The notes under the pieces: model-generated
Told to the model about the DNA's origin: nothing
The model's database searches: none
What the model saw: only the letters and a program-made list of their open reading frames with translations
Shown here: piece after piece, positions 7,403 to 13,844 of the stretch
Position numbering within the stretch: the stretch's first letter is position 1
Layout of the letters: every line of letters begins with the position of its first letter
Sequence record: ON470591.1
Reading direction: 5' to 3' (one strand)
DNA length: 26,627 nucleotides
Source of the DNA: Escherichia phage vB_EcoM-613R2
Made by a program: the position numbers and the translations under genes

Positions 7403-8404
7403 TTAATACCCATTAATTACTCTTCGGACATCAATCGAGGTGGTATAACCACTAGTCCCAATTGAATGCACAGCTTTCGATATAAGATATTTTCCAGAAA
7501 ATGAACCGAATCCCTCCAGATTTATAGTTACACCAGCTACCAATCTGGTGTCTCCAACCAATACTAAAGATCCGGTATTTTGATATCTATTTTTAAGCCG
7601 CAAAGCAGCCTTTGCCTTACGTTTTGCTTCATCTAAATTAGCTACCAGTTTTCTTATCTTAAGATTCGACCCTTCTTCTACGGATGGATCTACCCAAGTA
7701 TACGAAAGCGACTTTCTTTTTTTAGGTACGCGATATTTGCACGTGCAACTTTTATACAAATCTGTAGATTGTGTGCTAAAGCTATATCTGATTATCTCAT
7801 CAATACCTAACGTAAGCGTAGCGATAGGATCTTTTTGCTCAAACATCTCTTGAGCAAATATTATTAATTGGCTATCAGTGACCTTTAACGACAACCCTTC
7901 ATCCTGGCAAAGTCGATGGAGAAATTTTAAATCGCTTTCCTCCATTTGATCTTCACGCGCATAATATGGATTACTATCACCATCAATAAGAAACAACAGT
8001 TCAAGGTTAGCTAATTTAGCTATAGAAGTTGCTATATCTTTAAGAGTTGTTTTTTCCCATGCATTACTTTTTAAATCACGTCTAATGCCTGATGAAACAG
8101 GAACAGAAACAGCAGTTACCTCAACCACAGAAGGTGGTCCAGAGCAAGTTATGCCATCTACCTGGAATTTCCCGCACTCAAGGACGATTTGATTTATAGG
8201 CTTAAAGCTCAAATCAATAAAATCACCCTTTTTAGGTGTCCAGTCTCCAGACCATTTCCCATCATCATTTTTTAATATAATAGAAATATCATCGACCTGA
8301 CCATCTTCATTATCTGTATAAGACATTGACAAAACATCAGGTGACATATGAGCGGTAATATTTACATTCTGATATATAACATCAAAAAGCGTTTTACGTA
8401 ACAC
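7403..8404 (-). CDS. Tail/baseplate hub protein, P2 gpD-like (late control D family)
   Basis: 333 aa. GTG start at 8404 with GGAGA upstream. Positioned between the X-like and V-like genes as in many P2/Mu-type tail modules. Assignment is by size and synteny. Confidence 0.65.
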   Translation of the reverse strand: MLRKTLFDVIYQNVNITAHMSPDVLSMSYTDNEDGQVDDISIILKNDDGKWSGDWTPKKGDFIDLSFKPINQIVLECGKFQVDGITCSGPPSVVEVTAVSVPVSSGIRRDLKSNAWEKTTLKDIATSIAKLANLELLFLIDGDSNPYYAREDQMEESDLKFLHRLCQDEGLSLKVTDSQLIIFAQEMFEQKDPIATLTLGIDEIIRYSFSTQSTDLYKSCTCKYRVPKKRKSLSYTWVDPSVEEGSNLKIRKLVANLDEAKRKAKAALRLKNRYQNTGSLVLVGDTRLVAGVTINLEGFGSFSGKYLISKAVHSIGTSGYTTSIDVRRVINGY

Positions 8405-8612
8405 TATTGCGTCTCCACGGAGGAAAATTGTTTACTGATATTGGCATAACCGGAGCATCAGGAACTTTAAGAATAATTCCCGCAGAAAAAAGCACCGTAA
8501 AGCGGTGCTCAGTATTAGCATCAATAAGAAGATAAGACAGGTACTCATTACCATACAACTTTAAAGCGATACTATCCCATGAGTCCCCTTGAACCGTTCT
8601 ATAATCATCCAA
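8394..8612 (-). CDS. Tail protein X-like (LysM-like small tail protein)
   Basis: 72 aa. TTG start at 8612 (the only start available after the upstream in-frame stop), preceded by GGAG. The motif RTVQGDSWDSIALKLYG resembles the gpX/LysM-like signature (G-D-T-L-x-x-I-A-x-x-Y-G). Confidence 0.6.
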   Translation of the reverse strand: MDDYRTVQGDSWDSIALKLYGNEYLSYLLIDANTEHRFTVLFSAGIILKVPDAPVMPISVNNFPPWRRNSVT

Positions 8613-11397
8613 AACTTAATCTCCGTTGTTGGAACATATGAGCACTCAATTTCTTCTCAAAATCAGAATATCCCGCATCTAATGCTCTTTTAGCTGCCGC
8701 CTCAGTTTCCTTTGGTGAACCAGCCGGAAGATTGATTACAGGTGAATAGGTTATTCCACCAGTCACAGCGTTAACGTTCTGGCGAGGTCCAGAAGTCCCG
8801 GCGGCAGATATCCCGTGAGGTGATAAATTTGATTGCCCGAACTTGCTTGCTATTGCATTCTGTAAGCTGTTATTCCTGCTAACACCTGATGCCAGAGTAG
8901 TCATTATTGCACCACCTGACTTTGTTAGCTGTGAGAATGGACCTTTTTTCGCGTCAGAGAACGGTAAATACTCACGTACAGAAGAAAAAACGCCTTTCAC
9001 TTCATTAATTAAAGCATTTGCTTTTGATTTTATCCCAGTGATTAACGTCTCAATTATTTTTGCGCCTGACTCACTCCAGTTTATTCCAGATAAATAAGTC
9101 GTTACAGATTGGAATGCTCTTATAAAGAGTCCAACTGGTGAAAAACGCATAAAAACAGATACCAGTGTATCTATGATTTTCTTTCCTGTTTCGCTCCAGT
9201 TAATGCCAGAAAGGTAATTTGTTGTAATTTTAAATGCTTTAATTAAGAACGGAAGCGGAGACATCCATTTAAAAGCACTAATTAATGTACTGTAAATTCT
9301 TACACCTGCCGAACTCCAGTTTATGTTGGAAAGATAATCCCATGCTTTACCAAACATAGATATAATCCATCCATTGAGGTCAAAGTTTAAGATAAAGTTT
9401 TTTATAGCCTCAAATGATTTAACTGTATATTCCTTAACAGAAGGCCAAACTCTGACAGCATAATCTCTGATCTTATCCCAATTCTGATAGAGCAATATTC
9501 CTGCGGCAACCAGCGCAGATATAGCCATCTGAATCCACCCGAAGGGTGTTAGCTTTGTCGCTACAGATAAAGCCAGCATAGCTACCCTACACGCTATAAC
9601 CACACTTTTCATGGTTAGAAACGCACCTGCCGCCATCACTATCTGAGACACAAAATTGGGGTTGTTAGCTACAAATTCACTAATTTTTGTAATCAGCGGA
9701 ACCAAAACACTAAGCGCGGCATTCAAAGCAGGTTGCAAGGCCTGACCAAAACTTAATGATGCATTGCTAGCCTGAATACGTAATTGTTTCAATCGCTCCG
9801 CATTATCTTTCGTTATGTTGGCAAAATCGCGGTCAATAACAGCACTTCCAGCTCCAAGAGATGTTGCTTTGATTCTCTGGTATTCCTTCCAGTTTTGAAT
9901 CATCGGACGAACAAAGTTCTGAACCTGCATATCGCCAAATAGTTCACCAAGTAACTTCTGATCTCCGTTCTTAGTCATTTTCATGACAGAATGCATTGCA
10001 GCTTCGAATGGATTCTTCCCTTTTTTCTGCGCTGTTGTAACAATTTTATATAAATCTACACCGAAATTTTTCTTTGCTTTTTTTAGTGTTTCAGGGGAAA
10101 GTATTTTTGCCAAAAAGTTGTTCATATTATTAGCAGCCTCATCCGAAGTTGCAGCCCCCTTGCGAGCTATCTGCAAAGCTGCACCCATCGTCGCGGCTGC
10201 TTCTTTACCTCCCATTTTTAATGCCTGGAACTGAGCACCAAGCACAGGAAGATTTTTGGCCATATCTTTAAATTCAAAGTTCCCCTCTTTCCCTGCCTGA
10301 ACCAGAATCCCCATTGCAGACTTCATTTGAGATGGATCAATCTTCAATGAGTCACTTAATGTAAATGATGCTTTCGAGACATCGAGGATATCAGAGCCAG
10401 TAGCTGTAGCTGTTCGCCCAATAGTTAGTAGATTCGCCTGAGCCTCTTTATAATCCTGCCCAGCAGCTACGAGAAAACCCTGAGCGGCCTGAATATCAGA
10501 TGCAAACTGGTTGGTAGCCGTTCCGGTAACAAGCATCGCCTGCCCCATCGCCTGAACTTCTTCCGGCTTCATATCTGCCGTAAGACCAATCATTTTGTTT
10601 TCACGATTGAAATTTGCTGCATTGTTAGCAGCAGCAAATGCACCAGCCGCTACAGCACCAGTTTGTAATCCTGACCTTACAAGTTGACTCTTTGCCTCAC
10701 CAAGATGCTCTCGCTTCAATTCACGCTGCCTTTCCAACGCGCGGTTTAACTCCTCCTGAGCACGTTTTACTGCAAGAACATTTTTCCGTGCTTCAGCCAA
10801 CGCATTTTTATAGCTGTTAATTTTATCAATACGTTGTTTTTCTAATGCCCGGTTAAGTTCCTCCTGCTGTTTTTTCACTTGCTGAACATTTGCTCTGGCT
10901 AAAGCCAAAGCCGTTCTGTAGCGGTTAACCTGCTCAACGCTACGGGCCTGAGCCTCACGATTACGATCAATGCTGGCTTTAAGCTCTTTCTCTCTTGAGG
11001 CCAAAGCTCTGGCAGATGTATCAGCTCCCTGATAGGCAGACTTTAAAGCGGCCAGTTCTTCACGCTGAGAACGTAGTGATGCTCGTAAATTCGATGAATG
11101 TGTTTTTGCCTTCTCAAAGTCACGAAGCATCGCTCTGGTTGGATTGGCCGTGTTTTTTATTTGCTTCTGTAACTCTTCAACGCGAGCGGCAGCTTTATGA
11201 TATTCGAGGGCAGTCTGTCCAACCTTTACTTTTACAGATTGTAGCTTTTGAATTTCCCCATGTTCTTTCGTTAATCCAGCAAGCTCGGCATTTAATTTAG
11301 CAACAGCCTGATTAGCTGTAGTAAAACTTTTGGGGAGAGAGGCGGCAACTTTGCCGCCAATTTCAAAAGCCAGCTTAAAGTTCTTATTGCTGGCCAT
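8605..11397 (-). CDS. Tail tape measure protein
   Basis: 930 aa, the longest ORF after the chaperone pair. Coiled-coil-type N-terminal region rich in Q/E/K/R/A/L with internal repeats, hydrophobic central segments, and three tandem repeats of about 40 aa near the C-terminal third. Confidence 0.9.
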   Translation of the reverse strand: MASNKNFKLAFEIGGKVAASLPKSFTTANQAVAKLNAELAGLTKEHGEIQKLQSVKVKVGQTALEYHKAAARVEELQKQIKNTANPTRAMLRDFEKAKTHSSNLRASLRSQREELAALKSAYQGADTSARALASREKELKASIDRNREAQARSVEQVNRYRTALALARANVQQVKKQQEELNRALEKQRIDKINSYKNALAEARKNVLAVKRAQEELNRALERQRELKREHLGEAKSQLVRSGLQTGAVAAGAFAAANNAANFNRENKMIGLTADMKPEEVQAMGQAMLVTGTATNQFASDIQAAQGFLVAAGQDYKEAQANLLTIGRTATATGSDILDVSKASFTLSDSLKIDPSQMKSAMGILVQAGKEGNFEFKDMAKNLPVLGAQFQALKMGGKEAAATMGAALQIARKGAATSDEAANNMNNFLAKILSPETLKKAKKNFGVDLYKIVTTAQKKGKNPFEAAMHSVMKMTKNGDQKLLGELFGDMQVQNFVRPMIQNWKEYQRIKATSLGAGSAVIDRDFANITKDNAERLKQLRIQASNASLSFGQALQPALNAALSVLVPLITKISEFVANNPNFVSQIVMAAGAFLTMKSVVIACRVAMLALSVATKLTPFGWIQMAISALVAAGILLYQNWDKIRDYAVRVWPSVKEYTVKSFEAIKNFILNFDLNGWIISMFGKAWDYLSNINWSSAGVRIYSTLISAFKWMSPLPFLIKAFKITTNYLSGINWSETGKKIIDTLVSVFMRFSPVGLFIRAFQSVTTYLSGINWSESGAKIIETLITGIKSKANALINEVKGVFSSVREYLPFSDAKKGPFSQLTKSGGAIMTTLASGVSRNNSLQNAIASKFGQSNLSPHGISAAGTSGPRQNVNAVTGGITYSPVINLPAGSPKETEAAAKRALDAGYSDFEKKLSAHMFQQRRLSFG
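9001..9339 (-). repeat. Three tandem in-frame repeats of about 120 bp within the tape measure gene
   Basis: Protein copies carry the motif YLS.INWS..G..I..TL.S.F...SP.....I.AF, three times in succession. Confidence 0.75.
10714..10926 (-). repeat. Tandem in-frame repeat of about 105 bp (two copies) within the tape measure gene
   Basis: Protein copies (INRYRTALALARANVQQVKKQQEELNRALEKQR versus INSYKNALAEARKNVLAVKRAQEELNRALERQR) are adjacent; the DNA is correspondingly repeated. Confidence 0.75.
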
Positions 11398-11402
11398 TAG
11401 TA

Positions 11403-11833
11403 TTAATCCTCATTAAACACGTCAATCCATGCGACGATTCGCCTCAACCGAAGCGAAAGCCAGTAGGATATAGGTGTTGATTGAGATGATTGAGATAGAG
11501 AACTCGCGGCCCTCATTATTTGCTTATCAATAGGTTTTTGCTCATCAAAACCTACGAGAGCAAAAAATTCTGTACCTTTTGACAAACTTTAACAAAGTCT
11601 TTCGCTGGTAATCCATTCAGATACTCTATTGGACGACCAATACAGCGAGCAGCCAAGGCTGCATGGACTTTATTATCAAGTGATGTTTGAACTGAAACAT
11701 GCCCTTGAGATTGCAGTAAGTCCGATACCTCTAAAATATCACTGCCTTTTAGGTTGTCTAAATCAAGGTTGAGTTCAGTCACTGGCTCAAAGTCTTCAAA
11801 ACGATATTCTTTACTTAATTTAACGGTTTCCAT
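11403..11833 (-). CDS. Frameshift-extended chaperone (P2 E+E'-like / lambda GT-like), made by a -1 ribosomal frameshift
   Basis: The -1 frame opened at the slippery site continues FFALVGFDEQKP... to a TAA at 11403-11405, immediately before the tape measure ATG. The predicted fusion is about 144 aa, close to P2 E+E' (142 aa). Confidence 0.7.
11552..11833 (-). CDS. Tail assembly chaperone (P2 gpE-like / lambda gpG analogue)
   Basis: 93 aa ORF between the tube and tape measure genes. It ends ...CAG AAT TTT TTG CTC TCG TAG, which places a T_TTT_TTG slippery heptamer a few codons before the stop. Confidence 0.8.
   Translation of the reverse strand: METVKLSKEYRFEDFEPVTELNLDLDNLKGSDILEVSDLLQSQGHVSVQTSLDNKVHAALAARCIGRPIEYLNGLPAKDFVKVCQKVQNFLLS
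11561..11567 (-). other. Programmed -1 frameshift slippery heptamer T_TTT_TTG
   Basis: Plus-strand CAAAAAA at 11561-11567 is TTTTTTG on the coding strand, in the X_XXY_YYZ register of the chaperone frame. This is the same heptamer class used by P2 E/E'. Confidence 0.7.
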
Positions 11834-11842
11834 TTTTTCACC

Positions 11843-12364
11843 TTATAAACCTAAATCATCACGAACAGTTTTTAATATATCTTCGCCATCAAAGATACAA
11901 ATAAAGTTCAACTTATCAATTTCTAAGACTTCTTTCCCATCAATAAATAATTTGATATAGAGAACTTCGAATTCATTTTCTGAATCAGTGGCCTTTGCTA
12001 CCTGTAGCGAACCTAAATCCAGTTTTTTAGGGTTTAGCTTCATTGAAGCCCGAATAGGAACCGTTTTATATTTTCCTGTTCCTGCATCATAAACCTGCTG
12101 GCTACCGCGAAAATCTACCTGATGCGATGAGGATAGAAATAATTTTGTACCAGCAGAGGTCAGAGTTCGCCATTTAAGAGAGACAGTCATTGGTTTGAAA
12201 TGCCCCAGCGTTCCGCTCTCAAGCTCTCCAGCGATACCTGCACCACTAACAGTTTCTGTCATCATCTCAATTGATGGCAGCTTTGCGTCAGCAACACCGA
12301 TAATACGGTTTCCTTCACCGTATACTGTAAAGTTAATAAGTCTCTCAGGAATTTGATTGCTCAA
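11843..12364 (-). CDS. Major tail tube protein (P2 FII family)
   Basis: 173 aa. TTG start at 12364 with a strong AGGAGGT Shine-Dalgarno 4-5 nt upstream. Directly downstream of the sheath gene and upstream of the chaperone pair, the canonical contractile-tail order. Confidence 0.85.
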   Translation of the reverse strand: MSNQIPERLINFTVYGEGNRIIGVADAKLPSIEMMTETVSGAGIAGELESGTLGHFKPMTVSLKWRTLTSAGTKLFLSSSHQVDFRGSQQVYDAGTGKYKTVPIRASMKLNPKKLDLGSLQVAKATDSENEFEVLYIKLFIDGKEVLEIDKLNFICIFDGEDILKTVRDDLGL

Positions 12365-12380
12365 AGCAACCTCCTATTAT

Positions 12381-13844
12381 TTATTCAGAAAACAAGTTCA
12401 GCAGATAATCAGGATTATATTCCATGACGAACTCTATATCTCTGGCAGGTGAGAATGGTGTCATTTTCACATGGAATTTAACAATCCCGTCCATCAATGA
12501 CGTAATCGTGTTTTCAGACTGATCAAAGGTAACAACACCACCTGCAATATCCTGATTACCAGTGAGGCCGTTAAGCCAAATATTCGCACTAGTAACAATC
12601 GATTCAATTAATCGACGGTTTGCAGGATTGTCTATTTTTGACCAATGCGAAAGAATTAACGTATTACCCACCCAGTTAAACATACGTCGGCAAACACGAA
12701 ATGCGTCTTTGGGGTCTGTAGATGTTGGATAAATAGCATTACGGTTTCCCCATGATTTCCAACCATCAAAATTAAGGCTTGTTACAATCCCCTGTCCATT
12801 TAAGTAGTTTGCCTGGCTAATGTTAAGCCATACCTCACTGCCATCTTTACGTACAGCACCGTCCATCTGTAGTTTTATATTTGACGGAGAACGTGATGGA
12901 ATATCACCATACTGACTATCCAGCAAGCATGTTGCTGCCGCTAAATGGGTTGAGTGATGGTAAATATTGTCACCAAGTTTCACCATCGGCCAGCACACTG
13001 TCTGGTTAGCTGCCATATGATTATTGTTCTGCTTCCATTCAGGAACAGCAGAATAATCACTGATAGTAGATTTATCAGTCGGCGCATCGGTGATAGCTTC
13101 TGCTTTGAACAATTCACTAATCAGCGCAGCTTTAGCCGCCATTAGCTGGCCAACTTCACTATCAGAACTAAATCCAGGCGCAATCACTTGTCCTGGAACT
13201 AGTTTGAAGCGGGGATAAACATCCGACAGTAACTCAAGCCCCGTATTCGCTTTAGTGTTGGAATCCACGCCACCAATAATATCGTTTTTAGTTACAGCCC
13301 CGGGATCAAGATACGTATAACTAACCTTAAGAGTGGCGTCTTTTTCAGTAACTTTTCCTCCGCTAATAGCGGTAATGACCGTATAGCCATTATCATCCAG
13401 CGCCAGTACATAATCTGTATCAACCGTTAACCCTGGAGAATCACCATCTGCTTTTTTCACAACAACAGATTTATATAAGACACCATCGTTAGAGAGCGTA
13501 CCTTTCCCGCCAGAAAGTTTTACTACCTCATCAGTTACGTCTTTCTTATGCTTTGCTGGATCAAGCACATTGATAAATACAACTGGCGCAACACCATATA
13601 TTCCAAATGCGACTTTAATTACTTCGCTTAAAGTATATTTCTCGAAGTTTGTGCTATATCCTATTTTAGATACGGCCTCTGCGTATGTATAAGCAATGAT
13701 AGGTTTATTTACCGCTGAGGCTGGATCTTCTAACTGATTAACAGGAGCTGTACCAAATGCGACAATCAACCCAGCACTAACTTGTACTGGAGGAGTTATA
13801 GATGTAGCCAGCTCAGATATATAAATACCGTGGCGATATCCCAT
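12381..13844 (-). CDS. Tail sheath protein (P2 FI family)
   Basis: 487 aa. ATG at 13844 overlaps the upstream stop (TAATG). Size and position immediately upstream of the tube gene fit a contractile sheath. Confidence 0.85.
   Translation of the reverse strand: MGYRHGIYISELATSITPPVQVSAGLIVAFGTAPVNQLEDPASAVNKPIIAYTYAEAVSKIGYSTNFEKYTLSEVIKVAFGIYGVAPVVFINVLDPAKHKKDVTDEVVKLSGGKGTLSNDGVLYKSVVVKKADGDSPGLTVDTDYVLALDDNGYTVITAISGGKVTEKDATLKVSYTYLDPGAVTKNDIIGGVDSNTKANTGLELLSDVYPRFKLVPGQVIAPGFSSDSEVGQLMAAKAALISELFKAEAITDAPTDKSTISDYSAVPEWKQNNNHMAANQTVCWPMVKLGDNIYHHSTHLAAATCLLDSQYGDIPSRSPSNIKLQMDGAVRKDGSEVWLNISQANYLNGQGIVTSLNFDGWKSWGNRNAIYPTSTDPKDAFRVCRRMFNWVGNTLILSHWSKIDNPANRRLIESIVTSANIWLNGLTGNQDIAGGVVTFDQSENTITSLMDGIVKFHVKMTPFSPARDIEFVMEYNPDYLLNLFSE

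What the first reader, a model, noticed from the sequence alone, without database searches (positions are those of the whole stretch)
11403..11833. Programmed -1 frameshift (T_TTT_TTG) joining the two chaperone ORFs
The 93-aa chaperone ORF ends ...CAG AAT TTT TTG CTC TCG TAG. The heptamer T_TTT_TTG is in the correct register, and the -1 frame is open from exactly this point to a stop just before the tape measure start codon. The predicted fusion (about 144 aa) matches the conserved tail-chaperone frameshift of P2 E/E+E' and lambda G/GT. Annotation pipelines usually miss it and call two small genes.
Basis: partly seen in the sequence, partly recalled or inferred. Interest (0 to 1): 0.5.

Follow-up and report, generated by a model that had tools for sequence, protein, structure and literature searches.

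The report
Tail chaperone -1 frameshift, unannotated
A myovirus-type phage-plasmid of E. coli almost certainly makes a second, longer tail-assembly chaperone by a -1 ribosomal slip on T_TTT_TTG, as phage P2 does; this is an ordinary, well-known device that public annotations of this element leave out.

Summary
All genes here are on the minus strand. A 93-aa tail-assembly-chaperone ORF (11833..11552) ends ...AAT TTT TTG CTC TCG TAG. The heptamer T_TTT_TTG (11567..11561) is in the X_XXY_YYZ register. The -1 frame then runs 52 codons to a TAA (11405..11403), 5 nt before the tape-measure ATG (11397).

The -1 extension is real coding sequence: dN/dS is 0.12-0.33. The heptamer, its register and a 52-61-codon extension ending at the tape-measure start recur in 13 lineages, from enterobacterial phage-plasmids to Vibrio, Paenibacillus and Faecalibacterium phages. 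No lineage keeps a conserved start codon or ribosome-binding site for the second ORF. P2 E/E+E' uses the same heptamer (91/142 aa; here 93/143 aa).

- The -1 frame opens 9 codons upstream of the slip site, not exactly at it.
- Tandem slippage predicts ...QNFL-ALVGF..., not QNFF.
- Annotators call one gene and leave a 154-nt gap, rather than two small genes.
- The window's 9-bp downstream hairpin is no better than synonymous-codon controls.

Verdict: correct and ordinary, a new member of a known kind. Its value is as an annotation fix for a phage-plasmid found in 71 complete E. coli genomes.

The parts
11552..11833 (-). Tail assembly chaperone ORF (analogue of P2 gpE / lambda gpG), 93 aa, the zero-frame product
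   Evidence: PF10109 Phage_TAC_7, 25.4 bits against a cut-off of 25. phrog_3140, E 8.7e-43. AF2 model with pLDDT 78.6 matches viral tail and tape-measure chaperones in BFVD.
11561..11567 (-). Slippery heptamer T_TTT_TTG in X_XXY_YYZ register (codons 89-91: AAT TTT TTG)
   Evidence: The same heptamer is in register in relatives and in P2.
11403..11561 (-). -1 frame extension (E'/T-like): 52 codons plus a TAA stop, starting at the G of the heptamer
   Evidence: phrog_30074, E 4.4e-32. dN/dS 0.12-0.33 with an excess of third-position changes. It aligns along its whole length in 12 lineages. No conserved start or SD.
11403..11833 (-). Predicted frameshift fusion, 143 aa: join(11833..11561, 11561..11403) on the minus strand
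   Evidence: The fusion matches phrog_3140 over residues 1-137, E 2.8e-47. P2 E+E' is 142 aa (PMC3091744).
11552..11554 (-). Zero-frame UAG stop, two codons after the heptamer. It overlaps GTA-GG (Val-Gly) of the -1 frame.
   Evidence: The position is fixed in 12 of 13 lineages through NTA codons (GTA/ATA/CTA/TTA), which are often uncommon in their genomes.
11530..11555 (-). Predicted 9-bp AU-rich hairpin GUAGGUUUU-N8-AAAACCUAU, 5 nt after the heptamer. Not supported as a selected stimulator.
   Evidence: -8.5 to -9.1 kcal/mol. z is -0.6 to -0.9 against synonymous-codon controls, and it is absent from 70-77% relatives.
11575..11578 (-). AAGG, a weak Shine-Dalgarno-like tetramer 7 nt upstream of the heptamer. 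Possible stimulator, unproven.
   Evidence: Anti-SD duplex -3.9 kcal/mol, z -1.27 in the window. The same trend appears in 14 of 15 lineages, including P2.
8605..11397 (-). Tape measure protein gene (930 aa), immediately downstream
   Evidence: PF10145, E 1e-20; phrog_28, E 9e-109.
11843..12364 (-). Tail tube protein gene (FII-like, 173 aa), immediately upstream
   Evidence: PF04985, E 5e-44.
12381..13844 (-). Tail sheath protein gene (487 aa)
   Evidence: phrog_23, E 2.8e-96.

Best explanation
This is the tail-assembly-chaperone recoding site of a contractile-tailed phage-plasmid.

Most ribosomes translate the 93-aa chaperone and stop at UAG (11554-11552). A minority slip back one nucleotide while decoding T_TTT_TTG (11567-11561). 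They then continue for 52 codons in the -1 frame and stop 5 nt before the tape-measure start. The result is a 143-aa fusion with the same N-terminus.

By analogy with lambda G/GT and P2 E/E+E', both proteins coat the tape-measure protein through the shared N-terminal domain. The rarer C-terminal extension recruits the tube subunit. The slip therefore sets a fixed ratio of the two chaperones needed for tail assembly, and neither ends up in the virion.

What is shown here: ORF geometry, heptamer register, conservation, purifying selection on the -1 frame, absence of an independent start, and family membership of the N-terminal domain. What is inferred: that the slip actually happens, how often, and what the two products do.
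For: - Geometry and register.
- Gene context (sheath, tube, chaperone, tape measure).
- The fusion matches phrog_3140 across the junction, and the extension matches phrog_30074.
- TTTTTT[G/A/C] is in register with 52-61-codon -1 extensions ending -32 to +19 nt from the tape-measure start (in the 12 of 13 lineages where that start could be located). This holds across enterobacterial, Vibrio, Paenibacillus and Faecalibacterium phages.
- The extension aligns end to end at 29-38% identity.
- dN/dS is 0.12-0.33 in the -1 frame.
- No conserved start or SD for the second ORF.
- In the window, 38 other in-register heptamers give at most 25 -1 codons.
- P2 uses the identical heptamer (E 91 aa, E+E' 142 aa); PMC3091744. 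The general mechanism is reviewed in PMC5009743.
- Vibrio phage X29 (45% identical) has the join annotated as 'lambda gpGT analog'.
- No promoter, terminator or Rfam element explains the 154-nt gap.
Against: - There are no experimental data for this element.
- U_UU.U_UU.G is not among the motifs rated highly efficient in E. coli reporter assays (PMC4066793).
- I found no supported stimulatory structure in this clade.
- The C-terminal extension shows no significant similarity to P2 E' (BLASTP E 4.6; hhalign E 0.048, probability 1%; no Pfam hit). Its tube-recruiting role therefore rests on position and analogy only.
- The Pfam hit of the N-terminal domain is only just above threshold (25.4 against 25 bits).
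Confidence: 0.92

Rival explanations
1. The downstream ORF is a separate small gene, translated from its own start codon (TTG at 11585, or the ATG at extension codon 15), with no frameshift.
For: the ORF listing reports a 60-aa TTG-start ORF at 11403..11585. Annotators of Vibrio phages XM1 and PVP-XSN and of Paenibacillus phage Lily call a separate small gene there.
Against: - No SD-like sequence precedes any candidate start in the window.
- The TTG at -8 is absent in the L022 lineage, where the first start in that frame is extension codon 10. That lies downstream of the conserved xxVGF/IGL N-terminal motif of the extension.
- No start position is conserved across lineages.
- The heptamer and its register are conserved everywhere.
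Confidence: 0.03
2. The fusion arises from transcriptional slippage: RNA polymerase adds one extra U in the T6 run, so a subset of mRNAs carries the two ORFs in one frame.
For: A homopolymeric T6 run is present. An inserted nucleotide would give the same frame change and an FF junction.
Against: - From general knowledge, documented bacterial transcriptional slippage needs longer runs, typically 8-9 or more A/T.
- The run is held at exactly six T's in tandem-slippage register, followed by G/A/C, in all lineages rather than lengthening.
- P2's identical site is described as a translational -1 frameshift in the P2 record and in PMC3091744.
Confidence: 0.03
3. The -1 ORF is a chance open frame or a relic, and only the 93-aa protein is made and needed.
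For: The motif is not a top-efficiency slippery sequence in E. coli assays (PMC4066793). Public annotations omit the second product.
Against: - dN/dS is 0.12-0.33 with a third-position excess.
- The extension is conserved end to end at the protein level between Proteobacteria and Firmicutes phages.
- The only lineages lacking it are visibly degraded elements: L021 has lost the tape-measure gene, and in L041 the chaperone is a pseudogene.
Confidence: 0.02

Closest known systems
Bacteriophage P2 E / E+E' (-1 frameshift in the FETUD tail operon; Christie et al. 2002, cited through PMC3091744 and the NC_001895 record)
   Same: - Identical slippery heptamer T_TTT_TTG in the same register near the end of a roughly 90-aa ORF.
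- Products of 91/142 aa against 93/143 aa here.
- Same position between the tube (FII) and tape-measure (T) genes of a contractile tail module.
- N-terminal domain in the same Pfam family (PF10109).
- No convincing downstream structure in either (PMC3091744).
   Different: - Pairwise similarity is not significant (BLASTP E 4.6; hhalign E 0.048).
- The E' part has no detectable homology to P2 E'.
- The zero-frame stop lies 2 codons after the heptamer here, against 6 in P2.
- The host element is a circular plasmid prophage with RepA/ParA, not an integrating P2-like phage.
Bacteriophage lambda G / GT (Levin et al. 1993; Xu et al. 2004, 2013, 2014; reviewed in PMC5009743)
   Same: Two overlapping ORFs sit between the major tail gene and the tape-measure gene. 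[quoted passage not shown] The predicted role is a chaperone of the tape measure made at a fixed ratio.
   Different: From general knowledge, lambda uses G_GGA_AAG. There is no sequence similarity, and lambda is a siphovirus with a non-contractile tail. Function here is inferred only by analogy.
Vibrio phage X29 'lambda gpG / gpGT analog' (NC_024369, YP_009043921 / YP_009091831)
   Same: - True homologue: 45% identity in the chaperone, and an alignable extension.
- Same heptamer, and the same TAG two codons later.
- The joined CDS is already annotated.
- The BFVD top structural hit is a 147-aa protein 43% identical to the query, the same length as the X29-type fusion.
   Different: X29-type phages carry a strong hairpin that starts at the TAGG (z about -3 against synonymous controls). 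The window's clade lacks it.
E. coli dnaX-type stimulated -1 frameshift (upstream SD-like element plus downstream hairpin)
   Same: A heptamer of the X_XXY_YYZ type. A weak AAGG lies 7 nt upstream, and a small hairpin lies 5 nt downstream.
   Different: Neither flanking element is supported as selected in this element (hairpin z -0.6 to -0.9; SD z -1.27). Here the frameshift product is the longer, minor form.

Membership tests
Conserved tail-assembly-chaperone -1 frameshift of long-tailed dsDNA phages (lambda G/GT, P2 E/E+E'; Xu et al. 2004) | Two overlapping ORFs located between the major tail (tube) gene and the tape-measure gene | tested here: met
   Tube 11843..12364, chaperone 11552..11833, -1 ORF 11403..11561, tape measure 8605..11397, all on the minus strand.
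Conserved tail-assembly-chaperone -1 frameshift of long-tailed dsDNA phages (lambda G/GT, P2 E/E+E'; Xu et al. 2004) | [quoted passage not shown] | tested here: met
   T_TTT_TTG at 11567..11561, codons 89-91 of 93. It is the only in-register heptamer in the window with a long -1 ORF.
Conserved tail-assembly-chaperone -1 frameshift of long-tailed dsDNA phages (lambda G/GT, P2 E/E+E'; Xu et al. 2004) | The downstream ORF lacks its own translation start | tested here: met
   No SD-like sequence precedes any candidate start in the window, and no start is conserved across 13 lineages.
Conserved tail-assembly-chaperone -1 frameshift of long-tailed dsDNA phages (lambda G/GT, P2 E/E+E'; Xu et al. 2004) | The arrangement is conserved among relatives despite sequence divergence, and the extension evolves as protein | tested here: met
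   13 lineages keep the heptamer, its register and the extension. dN/dS is 0.12-0.33. See also alignment A2.
Conserved tail-assembly-chaperone -1 frameshift of long-tailed dsDNA phages (lambda G/GT, P2 E/E+E'; Xu et al. 2004) | Both products are made in a fixed ratio, both are needed for tail assembly, and neither is in virions | not testable with these tools
   Needs protein analysis and genetics.
Pfam PF10109 Phage_TAC_7 (P2 gpE, Mu gp41 and related chaperones) | HMM score at or above the gathering threshold of 25 bits | tested here: met
   25.4 bits, E 1.5e-5, over residues 3-91 for the 93-aa ORF; this is marginal. All 12 aligned relatives hit the family, best E 1e-7.
P2 E' C-terminal extension (homology of the -1 encoded domain) | Detectable sequence or profile similarity of the extension to P2 E' | tested here: inconclusive
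   BLASTP E 4.6. hhalign of A2 against P2 E+E' gives E 0.048, probability 1%, though colinear across the junction. The extension has no significant Pfam hit.
PHROG phrog_3140 (tail assembly chaperone) and phrog_30074 | Profile match that spans the frameshift junction | tested here: met
   Fusion residues 1-137 match phrog_3140, E 2.8e-47. Residues 89-143 match phrog_30074, E 4.4e-32.
Stimulated -1 frameshift sites (dnaX / IS3 type) | Downstream hairpin or pseudoknot under selection, 5-9 nt after the heptamer | tested here: not met
   The window hairpin of -9.1 kcal/mol is matched by 24-28% of synonymous-codon controls. It is not conserved in 70-77% relatives.
Stimulated -1 frameshift sites (dnaX / IS3 type) | Upstream Shine-Dalgarno-like element | tested here: inconclusive
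   AAGG lies 7 nt upstream, z -1.27 in the window. The trend is consistent in 14 of 15 lineages (z -0.35 to -2.8), but the lineages are not independent.

The most novel reading that the evidence does not exclude
In this chaperone family the frameshift signal may be larger than the heptamer. It would have three parts:
- a purine-rich, anti-SD-complementary stretch about 7 nt upstream;
- T_TTT_TTG itself;
- a zero-frame UAG held exactly 6 nt downstream by NTA codons (often uncommon in their genomes) in the -1 frame.

In several lineages that UAG(G) also forms the base of a hairpin. If these flanks tune slip efficiency, this would be a conserved composite stimulator for a tail-chaperone frameshift. 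Such frameshifts, as in P2 and lambda, are generally thought to work without stimulators.
Probability: 0.15. Interest if true: 0.35.

Novelty: new member of a known kind. Interest (0 to 1): 0.15.

Why it matters
The main value is for annotation. GenBank and RefSeq records of this phage-plasmid lack the 143-aa product and show a 154-nt 'intergenic' gap that is in fact coding. The records checked are Escherichia phage vB_EcoM-473R2, Yersinia phage vB_YpM_39 and two of the roughly 47-49-kb plasmids that carry this region in 71 of 5,426 complete E. coli genomes.

Adding a ribosomal-slippage CDS would complete the tail module of an element common in clinical E. coli. It also adds a well-conserved example of the P2-type T_TTT_TTG site, spanning Proteobacteria and Firmicutes phages, for comparative work on why a motif of modest intrinsic efficiency is used. 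It does not change the understanding of frameshifting or of tail assembly.

Tried and rejected
- **Downstream stimulatory structure.** Folding 128, 90, 66, 45 and 32 nt after the heptamer finds a 9-bp AU-rich hairpin. Dinucleotide shuffles give z -1.27, and synonymous-codon resampling gives z -0.6 to -0.9. It is not conserved in the 70-77% relatives, so I rejected it as a supported element here. P2 facts are taken from the NC_001895 record and from PMC3091744 and PMC5009743.\n- **Word-index protein search with the fusion.** It found only chaperone-domain entries with no extension (15 of 18 exactly 93 aa) at 70-96% identity. No fused entries exist for this clade.

Full report
**1. What is in the sequence**

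All genes in this part of the window run on the minus strand. In order they are:
- a tail sheath gene, 12381..13844 (phrog_23, E 2.8e-96);
- a tail tube gene, 11843..12364 (Pfam Phage_tube FII, E 5e-44);
- a 93-aa ORF, 11552..11833;
- a 154-nt stretch with no called gene;
- a 930-aa tape-measure gene, 8605..11397 (PF10145; phrog_28, E 9e-109).

Counting from the ATG at 11833, TTT is codon 90 and TTG is codon 91. T_TTT_TTG at 11567..11561 is therefore in the X_XXY_YYZ register needed for both tRNAs to slip together.

Starting from the G of the heptamer, the -1 frame reads ALVGFDEQKPIDKQIMRAASSLSQSSQSTPISYWLSLRLRRIVAWIDVFNED. It stops at TAA 11405..11403, 5 nt before the tape-measure ATG at 11397.

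The -1 frame actually opens 9 codons upstream of the slip site, after a TAA at 11591-11589. This is a trivial correction.

**2. Is it more than chance?**

- ORFs of at least 90 aa in the window, on both strands, contain 39 in-register X_XXY_YYZ heptamers with Y = A or T. Their -1 extensions are 0-25 codons, and only the chaperone site reaches 52.
- The extended string TTTTTTG-N6-TAGG occurs once in the window, against 0.04 expected.
- No other ORF of 30 aa or more, on either strand, occupies the gap.
- Promoter, terminator and Rfam scans give nothing above background.

**3. What the proteins are**

- The 93-aa ORF hits Pfam PF10109 (Phage_TAC_7: 'tail assembly chaperone proteins E, or 41 or 14') at 25.4 bits, against a threshold of 25. 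It hits phrog_3140 (tail assembly chaperone) at E 8.7e-43.
- The conceptual 143-aa fusion matches phrog_3140 across the junction (residues 1-137, E 2.8e-47).
- The extension alone matches phrog_30074, a 62-position family of unknown function (E 4.4e-32). I infer that this family is made of separately called second ORFs.
- An AlphaFold model of the 93-aa domain (pLDDT 78.6) matches a 147-aa viral protein 43% identical to the query (TM 0.90). It also matches entries named tail assembly chaperone and tape measure chaperone in BFVD.
- There is no solved-structure relative.

**4. Where the window comes from**

- The region is 100% identical to Escherichia phage vB_EcoM-473R2 (partial genome) and 96-99% identical to three Yersinia phages.
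- The whole window is 99.7% identical to 13122-39749 of the circular 47-kb E. coli plasmid pWP5-S18-ESBL-08_3. That plasmid also carries repA, parA, a RelE/ParE toxin-antitoxin pair and a tRNA-Ile, so the element is a phage-plasmid.
- The region occurs in 71 of 5,426 complete E. coli genomes, always on plasmids.
- None of the closest records inspected annotates the second product. ON470610, OR545053 and two RefSeq plasmids all show only the 93-aa gene and a 154-nt gap, as do the gene calls on six further contigs.
- Two small genes are called in Vibrio phages XM1 and PVP-XSN and in Paenibacillus phage Lily.
- A proper joined CDS, 'lambda gpGT analog', exists in RefSeq Vibrio phage X29, which is 45% identical.

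**5. Comparative evidence**

I collected relatives from three sources: the phage collection, IMG/VR and contigs encoding 70-78%-identical proteins.

- Thirteen distinct lineages were found: several enterobacterial clades, Vibrio X29/XM1/PVP-XSN and metagenomic relatives, Paenibacillus phage Lily and a relative, and Faecalibacterium phage Epona. All carry TTTTTT[G/A/C] in the same register.
- All have a -1 ORF of 52-61 codons. It ends between 32 nt inside and 19 nt before the tape-measure start in the 12 lineages where that start could be located.
- The two exceptions are degraded elements. L021 has lost everything downstream of a breakpoint inside the extension, including the tape-measure gene. 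In L041 the chaperone ORF is truncated.
- The extensions align end to end at 29-38% identity, with invariant Gly95 and Leu113.
- Among enterobacterial relatives the extension evolves with dN/dS of 0.12-0.33 and a clear third-position excess in the -1 frame. It is therefore translated in that frame.
- No start codon is conserved in that frame, and none in the window has an SD-like sequence. In the L022 lineage the first possible start is extension codon 10, downstream of the conserved xxVGF motif.
- Translation must therefore enter from the chaperone frame.

One caveat applies. One of the two peptide patterns used for the IMG/VR scan included the residues N/S-F-L. It constrained amino acids, not codons. 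The tblastn hits were unbiased in this respect.

**6. Comparison with P2**

The NC_001895 record annotates E (91 aa) and E+E' (joined CDS, -1 frameshift). The sequence there reads GGT TTT TTG, the same heptamer.

PMC3091744 states that in P2 the -1 frameshift occurs at TTTTTTG and yields the 91-aa E and 142-aa E+E'. It adds that the site is conserved in P2-like Burkholderia phages and that no downstream hairpins are found. PMC5009743 reviews the lambda G/GT mechanism and notes that frameshift efficiency is 2- to 3-fold higher in P2 and its relatives.

By the P2 convention (shift after the terminal G), the product here is 91 + 52 = 143 aa with the junction ...QNFL-ALVGF.... Mass spectrometry can tell these apart.

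Direct similarity to P2 E+E' is not significant (BLASTP E 4.6; hhalign E 0.048, probability 1%). The alignments are nevertheless colinear across the junction (DFVKVCQKVQNFL against DLVALAGKVVGFL). So the N-terminal domain belongs to the same Pfam family, but homology of the extension to P2 E' is not established.

**7. Stimulatory elements**

- **Downstream hairpin.** A 9-bp AU-rich hairpin (GUAGGUUUU-N8-AAAACCUAU, 11555..11530, -8.5 to -9.1 kcal/mol) starts 5 nt after the heptamer. It is no better than dinucleotide shuffles (z -1.27). It is no better than controls that keep the E' protein and resample synonymous codons (z -0.6 to -0.9; 24-28% of controls fold as well). The 70-77% relatives lack it. 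Vibrio-type relatives and one metagenomic lineage do have a strong hairpin that begins at the TAGG (z about -3). P2 has none.
- **Upstream SD-like element.** AAGG lies 7 nt before the heptamer, with the same spacing in P2. Complementarity to the 16S 3' end exceeds synonymous controls in 14 of 15 lineages (z -0.35 to -2.8). It is weak in the window (z -1.27), and the lineages are not independent.
- **Fixed zero-frame stop.** The UAG sits exactly two codons after the heptamer in 12 of 13 lineages. It is kept by GTA, ATA, CTA or TTA codons in the -1 frame, whose background use is 0.01-0.25.

These flanking regularities are the only mildly unusual aspect. I record them as untested.

PMC4066793 does not list U_UU.U_UU.G among the high-efficiency motifs in E. 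coli. This fits a low-level slip.

**8. Rivals**

- Independent initiation of the second ORF, at about 3%. No SD and no conserved start argue against it.
- Transcriptional slippage on T6, at about 3%. From general knowledge the run is too short, and it is held at exactly six T's in register.
- A chance or relic ORF, at about 2%. Purifying selection and deep conservation argue against it.

**9. Verdict**

This is a P2-type tail-chaperone -1 programmed frameshift, a textbook device. It sits in a phage-plasmid lineage whose public records omit it: a new member of a known kind.

Confidence that the fusion is made by ribosomal slippage is about 0.92. Its role, a chaperone of the tape measure with a tube-recruiting extension, is inferred by analogy.

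Interest is low (0.15). The practical outcome is an annotation correction: join(11833..11561, 11561..11403) on the minus strand.

Noticed in passing
whole window (1-26627); L055 13122-39749: The window is 99.7% identical to a circular 47-kb E. coli plasmid (pWP5-S18-ESBL-08_3). That plasmid combines a complete myovirus structural module with repA, parA, a RelE/ParE toxin-antitoxin pair and a tRNA-Ile, so it is a phage-plasmid. The chaperone region occurs in 71 of 5,426 complete E. coli genomes, always on plasmids. The window itself contains no tRNA.
   Followed up: partly
window 8394..8612 (-): A 72-aa TTG-start ORF overlaps the end of the tape-measure gene by 8 nt. It resembles P2 tail protein X (PF05489, 21.1 bits, just under the 22-bit cut-off). 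It is annotated in ON470610 but missing from the RefSeq plasmid record, which shows a 200-nt gap there.
   Followed up: partly
window 11551..11567 (-); same position in 51 of 55 fetched loci: The extended motif TTTTTTG-N6-TAGG recurs once per locus. The zero-frame TAG is fixed two codons after the heptamer in 12 of 13 lineages, through NTA codons (GTA/ATA/CTA/TTA) in the -1 frame that are used at only 1-25% in those genomes. This suggests selection on the stop position or on the RNA.
   Followed up: partly
window 11568..11584 (-); L047 (P2) 662-678: The 17 nt upstream of the heptamer pair with the 16S 3' end better than synonymous-codon controls in 14 of 15 lineages, including P2 (AAGG or GAGGG 7 nt upstream; z -0.35 to -2.8). 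This is a possible SD-like stimulator. It is weak in the window itself (z -1.27).
   Followed up: partly
L040 2749-2838, L014 1749-1838, L042 2764-2853, L046 2752-2841: Vibrio phage X29/XM1-type relatives and two metagenomic lineages carry a strong hairpin that begins at the TAGG just after the heptamer (-28 to -37 kcal/mol; z -2.6 to -3.6 against synonymous-codon controls). The window's clade and P2 do not have it.
   Followed up: partly
L021 2767-3120: A 74%-identical relative keeps the chaperone ORF and the heptamer. Its sequence diverges 16 codons into the extension, and it has no tape-measure gene; an unrelated 277-aa ORF follows. It is a rearranged or truncated element.
   Followed up: partly
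L049-L052 (relatives of window 8605..11397): Called tape-measure lengths differ widely among close relatives of the element (633, 817, 818 and 1043 aa, against 930 aa here). The 633-aa call starts about 550 nt later than in its sister contig. This suggests length variation, or a disrupted gene, in some copies.
   Followed up: no
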